DNA from: Promethearchaeota archaeon
GTDB taxonomy: Archaea; Asgardarchaeota; Lokiarchaeia; Sigyniarchaeales; SOKP01
Length of the DNA: 64,000 nt
Assembly: GCA_016839555.1 (NCBI GenBank)
Contig: JAEOUA010000007.1
Coordinates: 32,001 to 96,000, forward strand
Direction of reading: 5' to 3'
Positions 10,176 to 48,418 of this stretch are shown piece by piece; positions within the stretch are counted from its first letter, which is position 1, and each line of letters opens with the position of its first letter. Under the pieces are notes generated by a model. It was not told the DNA's origin. It did not search any database and saw nothing but the letters and a program-made list of their open reading frames with translations. The position numbers and the translations under genes were made by a program.

Positions 10176-10718
10176 TTAAGCAAGATATGGGCGAATTTTT
10201 TTCCATATTGAATTAATGAGTTCTTTTTCTTCCGTATCAGGTTTGAATTTTAAGTTTTCAAGAATATATTGAGTTTCTTTGGTGTATCTTTCAATAAAAG
10301 AGTGTGGTGCTCCAGACATAGTAGAAACATTATGTTCTCTGTCTGCGAGCTTGATAATACGGGCTTCTTTAGATATATTATTTATTTTTTTTGTTAAATA
10401 TTGAGCTTTTGCTTTATAATCAGTTTCATTCTTATTGTTTTTATATTGTTTCTTATCAGAGGTTAATTCTTGAACTAAATCAGCGATTTCTTTGTTAAAA
10501 TTATACTTTAGTTCATCATATGTGGTGTCAGTATCTTCCAAAGTATCATGTAAATATGCGGCAGCTAAAATTGTTTTATTATTCTTATATTTATTGAATG
10601 TTTTCAAACGGTCAACGACCGCAAAAGGATGAGTGTAATATAACTCATTTGTGTATTTCCTTTGATCTTTTCCGTGCTTTAATTTCGCAAATGTTTTTGC
10701 TTTTTCTATTAAATCCAT
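10176..10718 (-). CDS. HD-domain protein, small alarmone hydrolase/Mesh1-like
   Basis: H..DQRK....Y..HP, AAYLHDTLEDT and IKLADREHN motifs. Confidence 0.85.
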   Translation of the reverse strand: MDLIEKAKTFAKLKHGKDQRKYTNELYYTHPFAVVDRLKTFNKYKNNKTILAAAYLHDTLEDTDTTYDELKYNFNKEIADLVQELTSDKKQYKNNKNETDYKAKAQYLTKKINNISKEARIIKLADREHNVSTMSGAPHSFIERYTKETQYILENLKFKPDTEEKELINSIWKKIRPYLA

Positions 10719-43450: not shown

Positions 43451-45847
43451 ATGATTTCGCATTTTTTATTCATTGATGAAAATAATTTCAAGGATATTAT
43501 AAAGAAAGATCTAAATAAGATAGTAGGATTAAGTTTTAAAGAGAAATGTCAAATAATTGACATGATTAGTTCTAAAAAGTTTACTAATGAACTCAAATTT
43601 AAATTAAAAGACATCTTAAAGATTGTCTCAAATAAAGAATTGTTGGTTCTTATGGGAAAAATAGATAATAAATCATTACAAAATGAAGTTAATTATGAAA
43701 AAAAGATAAAGGATACCTTAGCTACATCTATAGAAGAAAATAAATCTTCTAAGAGAAAATATATTGATGGTGGAAAGATTGATTTAGACTATTATGGTAA
43801 CATTATCGTAAATAAATATAAGGATATAATAAGAAAAAGAAGAAAGGCTCTCGGATTTCCTACTACACAAAAAAGATTATCCGATATGACTCCTATTATG
43901 CATAATCAAGTAAGAGATATTGATCAGATTGTTTCTAAGAGTGGAAGAACTAGATATTTATGGTTTGGTTTAGTCTATCAAATAACGGTGGTCGAAAAAG
44001 ATGGTAACGAAGGTAAAAAATATGCTGGAATGACAGCTCAAACTTTAAAGCAGAGATGGCATTGGTATGTTAAAACTGCATTGGAAAAACAAGAACATTG
44101 GCACTACCCCATAATAAAATTAATCAGGAAAGTATTATTTGATGAAACGAAATATGATGAAACAGATTTAAAAATAAGGGAAATAGATTGGAATTGGGCA
44201 AAGATTAATGCAATTCTGGAACCTCGATTTAAAAGAGAAGTAAAAATCATTTGTTTTAATTCAAAATCATTAAAAGAAGAGGAAAGAAAATATATAAGAA
44301 AATATAATTTAATTAAAGATGGATTAAATATTAGGGCGGGGGGAGAGGGCGGTCATGCAATCGATTTACCCATGTTTAAAATTGCTAAAATGATCACAAA
44401 AGGAATGAGTTTAAAAGAAATGGAAAAGATCATCAATTGGGTTACTCATACTACTATTTGGGACAGAATTAATGATTATTGGATATCCTATGAGAATTCT
44501 TTATTACTTTTCTTAAGACCTATGCTAAAGTTATTAATTATTTCTAAATTTGAATTATATGAAATAAATGAGACATATAATCGATTTATGCATGATACAA
44601 TAAAGACTTTTTTTGAAGGTCTTTCTTATAGACAATTAATAGATTTGAAGGAAGAAGAATGGAATTCTTTAGATTATGAACATCTCTCTCCTCGGACAAT
44701 AACTGGGCAAGTTAAATATATGATCCCTGGAAAAATCCTGAAAGATTTAATTCTAAGGAATAAAACAGCTATCTCTGCTATTGATGATCCCTCAATAGAG
44801 GATTCACTTTCTATTTATTGTTCGGATGTTGCTCGGCAGCAAATCGTATATCAAATACAGCAACAATTAGATTATGATAGTTGGATAAATGCTAGGAGAC
44901 ATATTTGTGGGAATTTTATTATTAAAAATCTAAAAAATCGTACTATAGAAGCAAAGGAGATATATATGAGAATAGGATATGATGAACCATCTGCTTATAC
45001 TCATACCACGCTAACTCAAATCTATTTTTTTGGTTTAACAACTGAAAAATTAAAAGAAATATTACAAAAAAATCCCTATATTGAAAAATATATTGATCTC
45101 AAAAAGTACATAGATAAATTAAAATCTAAAAAAACCAAATTACCAAAGACTAAAATTGATAAATTATTATTAAGAAAATTAAAAAGTAAAGATATGATAC
45201 AAGAGATAATAGGATGGTCAACTAAGGATTTCTTGAAAGAAGTTAAAAAATATTATCCTAACTTTAAAGAAGCAAAATGGATTGTTAAAGCACCCTATAT
45301 AATAAATAAATTTAGAAATATTTCCCTTCCCTATGATTCTAATGAATTGAATAAAATCGTGATTCATCTAGGTTATAGTAATTCTGTAAAAATTAGTTCA
45401 ATTATTAGAGATATGTTATTTGGTATGGGTTTGAAGGATGCTATAGCATTAGTAAGATATTATCCCGGAATTAAAACGTATCAAGATGCTTTAGAGAAAA
45501 TTAAAGAACTTAACAATTTTAGAAGACTTTTTAAAGCTGGAACATCAAAGAAAGAAACTCTAAATAAGATATTAGATATCTTTTTGAAAAAAGAATTTAT
45601 AACTATTAAACAAATAGCTAATCACACAGGATTTCTTAAAAGAACAATTAGAGGGTACTTGAAGGATTTAACTTCTCAAGGAATTTTGGAGAGAAAAATT
45701 CTTGATGGAAATCCTTTTTGGAAATTAAAAGTTTCAAAGAAAAAATTGGAGAAATTATTTGATGATTCTCCTATCAAATATCCATGGGATGATGATCCTA
45801 GTTTTTCGTTAAAAAATAAAATAAAACCTATAAAAGATAAAGAATAG
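43451..45847 (+). CDS. Large GIY-YIG endonuclease-domain protein with helical repeats and a C-terminal wHTH
   Basis: GLVYQI...KKYAGMT...LKQRW...LKEEERKYI...GLNIRAGG; C-terminal ITIKQIANHTGFLKRTIRGYLKDL. Confidence 0.75.
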   Translation: MISHFLFIDENNFKDIIKKDLNKIVGLSFKEKCQIIDMISSKKFTNELKFKLKDILKIVSNKELLVLMGKIDNKSLQNEVNYEKKIKDTLATSIEENKSSKRKYIDGGKIDLDYYGNIIVNKYKDIIRKRRKALGFPTTQKRLSDMTPIMHNQVRDIDQIVSKSGRTRYLWFGLVYQITVVEKDGNEGKKYAGMTAQTLKQRWHWYVKTALEKQEHWHYPIIKLIRKVLFDETKYDETDLKIREIDWNWAKINAILEPRFKREVKIICFNSKSLKEEERKYIRKYNLIKDGLNIRAGGEGGHAIDLPMFKIAKMITKGMSLKEMEKIINWVTHTTIWDRINDYWISYENSLLLFLRPMLKLLIISKFELYEINETYNRFMHDTIKTFFEGLSYRQLIDLKEEEWNSLDYEHLSPRTITGQVKYMIPGKILKDLILRNKTAISAIDDPSIEDSLSIYCSDVARQQIVYQIQQQLDYDSWINARRHICGNFIIKNLKNRTIEAKEIYMRIGYDEPSAYTHTTLTQIYFFGLTTEKLKEILQKNPYIEKYIDLKKYIDKLKSKKTKLPKTKIDKLLLRKLKSKDMIQEIIGWSTKDFLKEVKKYYPNFKEAKWIVKAPYIINKFRNISLPYDSNELNKIVIHLGYSNSVKISSIIRDMLFGMGLKDAIALVRYYPGIKTYQDALEKIKELNNFRRLFKAGTSKKETLNKILDIFLKKEFITIKQIANHTGFLKRTIRGYLKDLTSQGILERKILDGNPFWKLKVSKKKLEKLFDDSPIKYPWDDDPSFSLKNKIKPIKDKE

Positions 45848-46049: not shown

Positions 46050-47288
46050 GTGATATTTATTAGTATTCAGCCGATGAAGCTTTTCTTCCGTGAAATAAAA
46101 GAGCCTATTAGAACCACTATGATAGGAAATTATGCCGTGGCAGGCGGCGTTACCCAGACGGATCCTGATGTCATTTGTGCATTTCCAATAACTCCCCAAA
46201 CCCAATCAGTCGAAGGATTATCTGACGTGGTACATCAAGGTAGATTAAAAGCTGCATTTGTAAATGTAGAATCTGAATTAGCAGCCATGAGTTTTTCTAC
46301 TGCTGCGTGTGCTGCAGGTGCTCGTACATTCACTGCGACAGCTTCTCAAGGATATCTTTTAATGACAGAGGCGTTGCCAATGGCGGTGGGTTGGAGAGTA
46401 CCCTTAACCATGATGATTAGTGCCCGAGCTTTTAATTCCCCAAATCTCTCAATTTGGAATAGCTGGGAATTTACTGAAACGAATTCCGAAATTGGATGGA
46501 ATACCATCGTCTCAGAAAATGTTCAAGAGACCTATGATGCAGCCATTTTATCGGTGATGATGTCAGAGGATTCATTATTTCCAACAATGTTTATCCACGA
46601 TGGGTTTATTATTTCTCATTCCGTACAAAATGTGACTTTAATACCTGATGAAACCGTGCGAAAATTAACTCCTAAGAAACCACGACACCGCATTACGCCA
46701 AAAAAACCGGGAACTTGGGGCGGAATAGTCACTCCAAGCTATTTTATGGAATTTAGAAAAAGCCTCGATGTAGATAAAGAGCCAGTATTAGGTATTATGG
46801 AAGATGTTTTCGACCGATTTGAGAAAGCAACGGAGAGAAGATATGATCTTATTGAAACCTATAACTTGGATAACCCCTCAAATACCGCCTTTATAACGAT
46901 GGGATCCATGTGCGGAAATATAGTAAGTTGGATGACTAAAAATAAAGATGTTGGATTAATTAAGCTTCGCACATTTAGACCTTTTCCTTATGAACAATTA
47001 CAGCAAATCGTAGAAGACTATGGTTTAGAAAAATTAATCATTTTAGAAAAATCAGATTCTCTGAATGGAATGCTACCTCCGTTCTCGATGTCAATAGCAT
47101 CAGCACTTTACCCGCTGGGTACCTTGTTCAGAAGCTTTATCGTAGGATTAGGTGGCAGGGATGTCACCAGAGATGAGTTAAACATCGCACGAAAAAAAAT
47201 GGAAAATGTAAAAGATATGAAAGGTAAGCTTTATATGTATCTCGGTGTGAGAGAAACTAAAAATAAAATTTATGGGGTGAATATGTAA
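46050..47288 (+). CDS. porA: 2-oxoacid (pyruvate):ferredoxin oxidoreductase alpha subunit; true start possibly ATT at 46059
   Basis: AFPITPQT, VESELAAMS, TATASQG, DGFIISH, GLGGRDV. Confidence 0.93.
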   Translation: MIFISIQPMKLFFREIKEPIRTTMIGNYAVAGGVTQTDPDVICAFPITPQTQSVEGLSDVVHQGRLKAAFVNVESELAAMSFSTAACAAGARTFTATASQGYLLMTEALPMAVGWRVPLTMMISARAFNSPNLSIWNSWEFTETNSEIGWNTIVSENVQETYDAAILSVMMSEDSLFPTMFIHDGFIISHSVQNVTLIPDETVRKLTPKKPRHRITPKKPGTWGGIVTPSYFMEFRKSLDVDKEPVLGIMEDVFDRFEKATERRYDLIETYNLDNPSNTAFITMGSMCGNIVSWMTKNKDVGLIKLRTFRPFPYEQLQQIVEDYGLEKLIILEKSDSLNGMLPPFSMSIASALYPLGTLFRSFIVGLGGRDVTRDELNIARKKMENVKDMKGKLYMYLGVRETKNKIYGVNM

Positions 47289-47289
47289 A

Positions 47290-48418
47290 ATGTCAAATGG
47301 AGATAGAAATATTATAACGATGGAAGATATATTAGCGAGAGAAGGTAAATGCAATGTACTATTTCTAAACTATGATAACGAGGCATTTATGAACACCGGA
47401 ATCCAAGGGAATTCTACATTTTAGTAGAATTCTGGAAAAATCTGGTGGTACGCCTCCATATGCAAGTACAACTACAGGACCAGCAGGAGAAAAAATACCC
47501 GGAAAAGTTGGAGTGAAACAAGATTTAGTCACTCCATTTGCATTTTATGGTTCAAAAAAATTGTTTTTAGCAACGGTAAATCCAGCATATCCTCTTGATT
47601 TAATGGGAAAAATAATGGATGCCCTTAAATCCGACGGATCAGCTTTTATACAGGCCTTAAGTGATTGTATGAGAGGCTGGAGGCATGATGCTAAGGATGC
47701 TTTGAAAATCTCTAAACTTGCGACTGATAGTGGGTATTGGCCTTTATATACCATTCGAGTTGAAGAGGGTATACCCGTATTTTCATATTATAGAGGACTT
47801 GATATTGATAAAGATAAGTTTGTGGAATTTTTGCAATCTATGGGGCGCTTTAGGCATCTTTTTAAACCAAAATTTATGGAAAAAGAAATCAATGAAATAA
47901 TCTTTCAAACGGAACAAAGAAACAAGAAGATAAAGGGGTTAATTGAACAGTTTGGCGCTGATAAACCTAAAGACATCTATAGAATTGATAGAAAAGCATT
48001 AAAACCACAGGAGCATTTGCTTCCTGGACATGGCTTATGCCCAGGGTGCGGTGCGGGCATGGTTCTTTTTCAAATGGCTACAGCAGCTTATCAAGTAGCT
48101 GGTAATAATATGATCTATGTAAATAATACAAGCTGCTCGGAAGTTTCAACATCAAAAGATAATGTGACCTCTTGGAAAGTACCTTGGGTACATCATCTCT
48201 TTGAATCAGGTGCCACCGTTGCTGATGCTCTGGCAACTGCTTATAAAATTTTGAAAAAGAAAGGTTTATTTGGAAAACCAATGGAAGAAGAGGTGCCTTA
48301 TGTTATTCATATCGGTGGGGATGGCAGTACTTATGATATAGGATTTCAATTTTTGAAAGCAGCATTAATTCGGACCAGTACTTTCATGGAAATGAGCGAA
48401 CTTTTAAACGAAAAATAA
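47290..48418 (+). CDS. porB: 2-oxoacid:ferredoxin oxidoreductase beta subunit, circularly permuted and interrupted by a 31-nt candidate intron; exons 47290-47407 and 47439-48418, 365 aa spliced
   Basis: ATG 1 nt after the porA stop gives ...YDNEAFMNTGIQ, which joins ESGGTPPYASTTT...; GHGLCPGC and GGDGSTYDIG lie in the C-terminal half. Confidence 0.9.
47408..47438 (+). other. Candidate 31-nt BHB-type intron in the porB mRNA
   Basis: Exon helix caccgga/tctggtg, 4-bp central helix tcca/tgga, 3-nt bulges agg and aaa, 9-bp intron stem gaattctac/gtagaattc. Confidence 0.85.

What the first reader, a model, noticed from the sequence alone, without database searches (positions are those of the whole stretch)
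47394..47447. Near-canonical BHB mini-intron (31 nt) inside the porB coding sequence
Seen in sequence: the frame from ATG 47290 reads ...YDNEAFMNTGIQ and then hits TAG TAG, while the motif resumes as SGGTPPYASTTT in another frame. The intervening RNA folds as exon helix CACCGGA/UCUGGUG, one A.A mismatch, a 4-bp central helix UCCA(47402-05)/UGGA(47433-36), 3-nt bulges AGG(47406-08) and AAA(47437-39), and a perfect 9-bp stem GAAUUCUAC/GUAGAAUUC with a 6-nt loop. Established: archaeal splicing endonuclease (EndA) cuts BHB bulges after the second nucleotide and RtcB ligates; the classic mRNA example is crenarchaeal cbf5. Applying that rule removes exactly 47408-47438 and gives NTGIQESGGTP in frame, a 365-aa protein. 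Inference: a central-metabolism mRNA in an Asgard archaeon is spliced by the tRNA machinery, and standard annotation would call it a frameshifted pseudogene.
Basis: partly seen in the sequence, partly recalled or inferred. Interest (0 to 1): 0.95.

Follow-up and report, generated by a model that had tools for sequence, protein, structure and literature searches.

The report
tRNA-type mini-intron in Asgard porB
A 31-base insert that breaks the gene for a central-metabolism enzyme subunit (a 2-oxoacid:ferredoxin oxidoreductase beta subunit) in a Loki-type Asgard archaeon has the RNA shape that the tRNA-splicing enzyme cuts. Relatives carry similar inserts at five other spots in the same gene, so this messenger RNA is very probably spliced, which papers document for only one other archaeal coding sequence (cbf5).

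Summary
Window 47394-47447 folds as helix, bulge, 4-bp helix, bulge, helix. Removing 47408-47438 joins two frames into a 365-aa protein reading NTGIQESGGTPP, as in the uninterrupted orthologues read here; about 120 of about 125 relatives have an open frame of full length.

The insert is real DNA: contigs from another sample and from another study carry it without gaps. A second allele from a different clade has a 31-nt insert at the same site. It is only 15/31 identical, yet it keeps the central helix and 3' bulge and has four compensatory pair changes in the inner stem.

Relatives carry other 30-43-nt inserts at five more sites in this gene, four of them within about 45 nt of this one. Each obeys the same rule: the cut falls two bases after a 4-nt central-helix strand. 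Interrupted alleles stay under purifying selection.

The genome has two EndA paralogues, RtcB, many intron-bearing tRNA genes, and an rnhB gene split in the same way.

No RNA data were available, so splicing itself is inferred. Earlier notes of this scan report similar introns in other genes of this genome and in other Asgard genomes.

In passing: this PorB family is circularly permuted.

The parts
46050..47288 (+). porA-like alpha subunit gene (412-aa ORF). Its stop lies one base before the porB start codon.
   Evidence: Pfam POR_N 6.5e-54 and PFOR_II 2.3e-13; ORF list
47290..47407 (+). porB exon 1: 39 codons plus the first base of the Glu codon, ...YDNEAFMNTGIQ
47394..47400 (+). 5' strand of the outer (exon-exon) helix h, CACCGGA. 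It pairs with 47441-47447.
47402..47405 (+). 5' strand of the 4-bp central helix H (UCCA, exon)
47406..47408 (+). 5' bulge AGG; predicted cut after G47407
47408..47438 (+). 31-nt BHB mini-intron. It contains in-frame TAG TAG, the 9-bp inner helix 47409-17/47424-32, the loop 47418-23, and the 3' strand of H (UGGA, 47433-36).
47437..47439 (+). 3' bulge AAA; predicted cut after A47438
47441..47447 (+). 3' strand of the outer helix h (UCUGGUG, exon 2). A47440 faces A47401 as a mismatch.
47439..48418 (+). porB exon 2, (E)SGGTPPYASTTT... to the stop codon. It contains the CPGCG and GDG motifs that lie in the N-terminal half of ordinary PorB.

Best explanation
Window 47408-47438 is a 31-nt bulge-helix-bulge (BHB) intron inside the coding sequence of a 2-oxoacid:ferredoxin oxidoreductase beta-subunit gene of a Promethearchaeia (Loki-type Asgard) archaeon.

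How it most likely works:
- In the pre-mRNA, exon and intron bases form an outer helix, a 4-bp central helix and a 9-bp inner hairpin, with a 3-nt bulge on each strand.
- The host's two-subunit splicing endonuclease EndA cuts after the second base of each bulge, that is after G47407 and after A47438.
- RtcB joins the exons. This creates the Glu codon G|AA and a 365-aa reading frame.
- Unspliced mRNA would give only a 44-aa peptide.

Shown here: the structure, the exact restoration of the frame, the comparative pattern, and the presence of the enzymes. Inferred: the cutting and the joining themselves.
For: 1. Structure and coordinates are as described.
2. Only one site-and-length combination restores the conserved motif, and it is the one with canonical BHB register: H 4/4, inner helix 9/9, outer helix 6 of 7.
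3. All 15 uninterrupted orthologues of the first set read NTGIQ(E/Q)SGGTPP, 14 of them with E. About 120 of about 125 full-length orthologues in the class have an open frame of full length.
4. The insert is in DNA contigs from another sample and from another study, with 0 gaps. One such contig is 10% diverged.
5. A second allele (L039/L040/L045) from a different, well-supported clade has a 31-nt insert at the same site. It is 15/31 identical, has 4 both-sided compensatory changes in the inner stem, and keeps H and the 3' bulge (UGGAAA) unchanged.
6. Five further insert sites in orthologues (types B-E near this site, type C further downstream; 30, 31 or 43 nt) all place each cut two bases 3' of a central-helix strand with 3-4 of 4 pairs. 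Type B shows 3 compensatory changes.
7. Interrupted alleles are otherwise intact, with pN 0.06-0.16 against pS 0.70-0.87.
8. The 72 nt right after the intron differ from the second allele mostly by synonymous changes in the exon-2 frame (sequences). No ATG, GTG or TTG lies in that frame before 47513, so this stretch can only be translated when joined to exon 1.
9. The genome holds two EndA paralogues (one close to crenarchaeal catalytic subunits) and one RtcB. Asgard EndA is described as the (alpha-beta)2 type with the L1 loop that goes with broad specificity (PMC5829648).
10. 17 of 28 ARAGORN tRNA calls carry introns of 8-43 nt.
11. rnhB in the same genome is split in its DEAGR|G motif by a 28-nt insert with the same register.
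Against: - No RNA evidence: no spliced read, no circular intron, no peptide.
- The motif is near-canonical rather than canonical. An A.A mismatch sits next to the 3' bulge. In the second allele the outer helix forms only in a register shifted by one base.
- In type B inserts the outer helix is weak and H has 3 of 4 pairs.
- BHB-like geometry by itself is frequent by chance in this AT-rich genome, so the case rests on the comparative data.
Confidence: 0.85

Rival explanations
1. The gene is a pseudogene: a short palindromic insertion killed it, and the BHB-like fold is coincidence.
For: Loose BHB geometry is common by chance in this genome. The insert puts two stop codons in frame.
Against: - The permuted porB is single-copy in the genome.
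- All interrupted alleles are otherwise intact and under strong purifying selection.
- The insert's stem evolves by compensatory changes while its loop drifts.
- Inserts at six sites all obey the same cutting register and restore the frame exactly.
Confidence: 0.04
2. The insert stays in the mRNA and the ribosome skips it (bypassing of the T4 gene 60 kind), or shifts frame or reads through the stops.
For: A hairpin with stop codons directly after the break resembles bypass signals on the surface.
Against: - No matching take-off and landing codons give the right frame. AUC...AUC would land in the wrong frame (sequence).
- Type B, C and D inserts are 30 nt long, in frame, and carry TGA, TAA or TAG stops. 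No frameshift can rescue them, and readthrough would add 10 unconserved residues inside the thiamine-diphosphate motif.
- The insert sequences are not conserved as protein.
Confidence: 0.03
3. The insert is removed from the RNA by something other than EndA and RtcB, or from the DNA by a programmed deletion.
For: Excision of some kind is required by the conservation data, and the enzyme was not tested.
Against: - The only feature shared by six unrelated insert sequences is the BHB register that defines EndA substrates.
- There are no group I or group II features in 31 nt.
- Rfam finds nothing.
- DNA contigs of near-identical strains keep the insert.
Confidence: 0.05
4. The gene is split: a 44-aa peptide and a 301-aa protein starting at GTG 47513 are made separately and assemble.
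For: ORFs of these sizes exist.
Against: - The 72 nt between the insert and 47513 show a clear coding signature in the exon-2 frame but have no start codon.
- The peptide would end in unconserved insert-encoded residues.
Confidence: 0.02
5. The insert is an assembly or sequencing artefact.
For: The source is a metagenome-assembled genome.
Against: - The same sequence appears in contigs of another sample and of another study.
- Homologous inserts appear in JGI and ENA assemblies.
Confidence: 0.01

Closest known systems
BHB intron in the cbf5 pre-mRNA of Crenarchaeota (Watanabe 2002; Yoshinari 2006; Yokobori 2009, PMC2738675)
   Same: - A short intron inside a coding sequence, with a bulge-helix-bulge boundary.
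- The host has a hetero-oligomeric EndA.
- Patchy presence and absence among relatives.
- Breaks gene prediction.
   Different: - Different phylum (Asgard) and a different gene (a metabolic enzyme, not an RNA-modification enzyme).
- Six alternative sites in one gene family, and up to two introns in one allele.
- Splicing is shown experimentally for cbf5 but not here.
BHB intron in the 5' UTR of Haloferax volcanii HVO_1309 mRNA (PMC7714728)
   Same: An mRNA substrate of the tRNA splicing endonuclease.
   Different: It lies in the untranslated leader rather than in the reading frame. The host is a euryarchaeon with a homodimeric EndA.
tRNA introns of Asgard archaea (bioRxiv 10.64898/2026.10.13.758758; PMC5829648)
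   Same: - Same predicted enzymes and the same motif.
- Same size range: tRNA introns of 8-43 nt in this genome.
- Many positions and repeated gains are reported.
   Different: The host RNA here is a messenger, so precision to the base decides the reading frame.
Unconventional HAC1/XBP1 mRNA splicing in eukaryotes (IRE1 cut; RtcB joins in animals). From general knowledge.
   Same: Spliceosome-independent removal of a short intron from a coding sequence, restoring or changing the frame, with a tRNA-ligase-type joining step.
   Different: Another nuclease (IRE1) and another recognition motif (two stem-loops). It is regulated by stress. No homology is implied.
Translational bypassing of T4 gene 60. 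From general knowledge.
   Same: A short hairpin-containing gap with a stop codon inside a coding sequence.
   Different: It needs matched take-off and landing codons, which are absent here.

Membership tests
Archaeal BHB intron (EndA substrate) | [quoted passage not shown] | tested here: met
   Bulges 47406-08 and 47437-39; H 47402-05/47433-36, 4/4 Watson-Crick pairs
Archaeal BHB intron (EndA substrate) | Flanking helices on both sides (the strict hBHBh' form) | tested here: met
   Inner helix of 9 bp. Outer helix of 7 bp, but separated from the 3' bulge by one A.A mismatch, so near-canonical.
Archaeal BHB intron (EndA substrate) | Cuts after the second base of each bulge give a functional joined RNA | tested here: met
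   In silico only. The product reads NTGIQESGGTPP, as in the uninterrupted orthologues read here (14 of the first 15 with E), and is 365 aa long.
Archaeal BHB intron (EndA substrate) | Structure kept by compensatory change among homologous introns | tested here: met
   Window against L039: 4 both-sided changes in the inner helix and H unchanged, at 15/31 identity. Type B: 3 both-sided changes. Few sequences are available.
Archaeal BHB intron (EndA substrate) | Host encodes the splicing endonuclease and the RtcB ligase | tested here: met
   Two PF01974 genes (104 and 73 bits) and one PF01139 gene (564 bits). One EndA is closest to the A. pernix and S. tokodaii catalytic subunits.
Archaeal BHB intron (EndA substrate) | Excision observed: spliced RNA, circular intron, or in vitro cleavage | not testable with these tools
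   No RNA run holds the locus; only DNA contigs could be laid.
Programmed translational bypass (T4 gene 60 type) | Matched take-off and landing codons that keep the correct frame | tested here: not met
   The only repeated codon pair (AUC 47401 / AUC 47440) lands out of frame. The 30-nt in-frame inserts of relatives carry stops.
2-oxoacid:ferredoxin oxidoreductase beta subunit (PorB; thiamine-diphosphate domain PF02775) | GDG...NN thiamine-diphosphate motif and the N-terminal Cys motif, homologous to solved PorB chains | tested here: met
   Matches 9bt4_C (1e-37) and 5c4i_C (6e-35), but in permuted order. An uninterrupted orthologue hits PF02775 above its cut-off. The substrate was not determined.

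The most novel reading that the evidence does not exclude
BHB mini-introns are a recurrent, possibly mobile class of introns in Asgard protein-coding genes.

- The region coding for the thiamine-diphosphate motif of this one gene has taken inserts at five sites within about 45 nt, plus a sixth further downstream.
- Their distribution does not follow the gene tree.
- One allele carries two inserts.
- Type B inserts in different genera are 27/30 identical although synonymous sites of the host genes are saturated.

If so, the closest prokaryotic relatives of eukaryotes routinely need spliceosome-independent mRNA splicing to express core genes, and introns can spread or be regained at preferred sites.
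Probability: 0.5. Interest if true: 0.9.

Novelty: new member of a known kind. Interest (0 to 1): 0.8.

Why it matters
In the papers I could search, archaeal mRNA splicing by the tRNA machinery is documented for one coding sequence (cbf5) and one 5' UTR.

- A precisely placed BHB intron in a central-metabolism gene of an Asgard archaeon, with sister introns at five other sites in orthologues and a similar insert in rnhB of the same genome, suggests this is a regular part of gene expression in these organisms.
- Gene callers truncate such genes or call them pseudogenes, which distorts metabolic reconstructions of Asgard genomes.
- It offers a small, testable system for how introns are gained, lost and tolerated in coding sequences in the prokaryotic lineage closest to eukaryotes.

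Tried and rejected
- **RNA evidence.** No RNA holder was listed for the locus, so expression and splicing could not be examined. Only DNA contigs were laid.
- **Repeat element.** The 24-nt hairpin is unique in the genome at up to 3 mismatches, so a repeated mobile element of that sequence is rejected.
- **Known RNA families.** Rfam gave only a chance-level snoRNA match (E = 0.77).
- **First genome-wide scan.** A scan for BHB geometry plus ORF merging gave 7442 real hits against 7418 in reversed sequence.
- **Second genome-wide scan.** Stricter criteria gave 4657 hits against 4703 for the mirror geometry, and 64 against 58 ORF-merging hits. It recovers the porB intron but shows no enrichment. 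It cannot count mRNA introns, and structure alone is weak evidence in this AT-rich genome.
- **Two scan hits on contig C7.** Hits at 281093 and 283165 were looked at and left open. The downstream ORF can simply start at an ATG just after the hairpin.
- **Short open frames in relatives.** Those in G058 and G069 are contig ends, not inserts. The 'TAG inside' in G041 is the natural stop codon.
- **Uninformative loci.** L052, L054 and L056 gave nothing (contig end, rearranged sequence, Ns).
- **Frameshift, readthrough, bypass and split-protein readings.** These were considered and rejected for the reasons given under the rival explanations.

Full report
**1. Observation**

- The frame from ATG 47290 encodes MSNGD...YDNEAFMNTGIQ, then GNSTF, and stops at TAG TAG (47422-47427).
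- The +1 frame reads SGGTPPYASTTTGPAGE... from 47441 and stays open to 48418.
- RNA folding of 47385-47457 gives the proposed structure as the minimum-free-energy fold: -23.4 kcal/mol, z = -3.8.
- The structure has a 7-bp outer helix (47394-400/47441-47), an A.A mismatch (47401/47440), the central helix UCCA/UGGA (47402-05/47433-36), the bulges AGG (47406-08) and AAA (47437-39), and a 9-bp inner helix (47409-17/47424-32) with a 6-nt loop.
- The bulges lie 3' of each central-helix strand. That is the handedness of archaeal tRNA introns at position 37/38 (general knowledge of the motif; described in PMC5829648).
- Cutting after the second base of each bulge removes 47408-47438 and gives a 365-aa ORF.

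**2. Organism and gene**

Related contigs carry titles of Promethearchaeota/Promethearchaeia MAGs, so this is a Loki-type Asgard archaeon.
- The upstream ORF is a PorA-like alpha subunit. Its stop lies one base before the porB ATG.
- The interrupted gene is a 2-oxoacid:ferredoxin oxidoreductase beta subunit. It matches solved PorB and oxalate oxidoreductase beta chains.
- It is single-copy in its permuted form.

**3. Orthologues**

- The 15 uninterrupted relatives of the first set read ...NTGIQ(E/Q)SGGTPP..., 14 of them with E, which is the predicted spliced product.
- Across 161 genomes of the class, about 125 have a full-length orthologue. Only five are interrupted near this motif: the window's genome, G005, G002, G008 and G014.

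**4. The insert is real DNA**

- A 1155-nt contig from another sample covers 47100-47512 with no difference.
- Two 151-nt contigs from a different study cover the insert, one identical and one with 15 substitutions and no gap.
- Intron-free contigs in those runs belong to diverged relatives. One joins exactly at 47407 to AATCTGG.

**5. A second allele of the same intron**

A pattern scan of metagenome contigs found L039/L040; the same sequence is also in an ENA contig, L045.
- Its insert is at the same site and also 31 nt long.
- It is only 15/31 identical. The loop is fully different.
- Four inner-helix pairs are changed on both sides and still pair.
- The central helix and the intron's 3' end (UGGAAA) are unchanged.
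- Two synonymous exon changes let the outer helix re-form in a register shifted by one base.
- This gene sits in another well-supported clade, next to an uninterrupted sister.

**6. More sites in the same gene**

| Type | Alleles | Junction and length |
|---|---|---|
| B | G005, G002, G014, G008, L046, L050 | GGAA, 30-31 nt, TTCAAG; 6 nt upstream of the window's site |
| D | L048, L055 | ATGAA, 30 nt, TACAGG |
| E | L049, L053 | GGGAC, 43 nt, ACCGCC |
| C | L039 | GCGTAT, 30 nt, TCTGAC; about 75 codons downstream, so this allele has two inserts |

- Most of these inserts carry in-frame stops.
- For every allele I listed all site-and-length combinations that restore the conserved protein motif. 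In each case the combination with the best BHB register scored far above the others. It had 3-4 of 4 central-helix pairs ending two bases before each cut, and an inner helix of 7-10 bp.
- Type B alleles show three both-sided compensatory changes.

**7. Selection**

- After removal of the inserts in silico, all interrupted alleles are intact.
- Between interrupted alleles, pN is 0.06-0.16 while pS is 0.70-0.87, which is saturated.
- The 72 nt just downstream of the window's insert differ from L039 mostly by synonymous changes in the exon-2 frame, including an AGT to TCC Ser-to-Ser change (sequences).
- That frame has no start codon before 47513. This segment must therefore be translated as a continuation of exon 1.

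**8. Machinery**

- The genome has two EndA-domain genes of 198 and 208 aa. The first is closest to the catalytic subunits of the crenarchaeal heterotetramers.
- It has one RtcB.
- ARAGORN calls only 28 tRNAs, 17 of them with introns of 8-43 nt. The splicing system is evidently in heavy use.
- The genome's only Pfam RNase HII match is split inside DEAGR|G by a 28-nt insert.

**9. Limits**

- No RNA run held the locus, so excision is inferred.
- Geometry alone is not diagnostic in this AT-rich genome. Two genome-wide scans found as many hits in reversed or mirror-image controls as in the real geometry.
- The argument therefore rests on three things: the junction fixed by orthologues (chance of the geometry there about 2e-5), the covariation, and the repeated pattern at six sites.

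**10. Comparison with what is known**

- The papers I could search name cbf5 as the only coding-sequence BHB intron, and HVO_1309 as a 5'-UTR case (PMC7714728, PMC2738675).
- The recent preprint on Asgard tRNA introns does not mention mRNA.
- This element works like the cbf5 intron and meets every sequence-level criterion of a BHB intron. It is a new member of that kind, in a new phylum and a new gene.
- Earlier notes of this scan describe similar inserts in other genes of this genome and in other Asgard genomes, some with RNA support. Apart from rnhB, I did not test those.

**11. Other observations**

- The PorB family here is circularly permuted. Query residues 190-312 align to residues 6-115 of 9bt4_C, and query residues 2-155 align to residues 137-283. 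Ordinary PorB paralogues match in swapped order.
- The new termini fall between the GDG and NN halves of the thiamine-diphosphate motif.
- The permuted form is conserved across the class. My paper search found no description of it.
- Insert types are scattered on the gene tree.
- Type B inserts of different genera are 27/30 identical despite saturated synonymous sites in the host genes. This hints at transfer or strong constraint.

Noticed in passing
window 47290-48418 (and orthologues L003-L031): This PorB family is circularly permuted. The part homologous to residues 137-283 of a solved PorB comes first, and the part homologous to residues 6-115 (CPGCG, GDG) comes last. The new ends fall between the GDG and NN halves of the thiamine-diphosphate motif. 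The permuted form is conserved across the class, and a paper search found no description of it.
   Followed up: partly
L039 10265-10351 and about 10530-10560 (same in L040, L045): One metagenome allele of the same gene carries two mini-inserts. The first is the 31-nt one at the window's site. The second is a 30-nt one (type C) at AFIQAY|SDCMRGW, with its own BHB-like fold.
   Followed up: yes
L003, L018, L021, L014, L050 (type B); L048, L055 (type D); L049, L053 (type E): Orthologues carry inserts of 30, 31 or 43 nt at three further sites (types B, D, E), all within about 45 nt of the window's site. Type B inserts from different genera (L003 and L018) are 27/30 identical although synonymous sites of the host genes are saturated. 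Insert types do not follow the gene tree.
   Followed up: partly
G000 contig C12, about 69913-70000 (locus L057): The only RNase HII gene is split inside DEAGR|GPV by a 28-nt insert with a 4-bp central helix (AGGG/CCCU) and 3-nt bulges in the BHB register.
   Followed up: partly
whole genome G000: ARAGORN finds only 28 tRNA genes in 3.7 Mb, 17 of them with introns of 8-43 nt. Many tRNA genes are probably missed because of non-canonical or multiple introns.
   Followed up: no
G000 contig C7, 281093 and 283165 (+ strand; locus L058): Two tandem paralogous genes each have the same 25-nt hairpin in BHB register just upstream of an ATG. It could be a mini-intron or a leader structure; this is undecided.
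   Followed up: partly
window 43451-45847 (+): A 798-aa ORF upstream of porA has only a weak HTH_11 match. In L044/L045 the gene in the same position (842 aa) carries a LAGLIDADG_3 hit.
   Followed up: no
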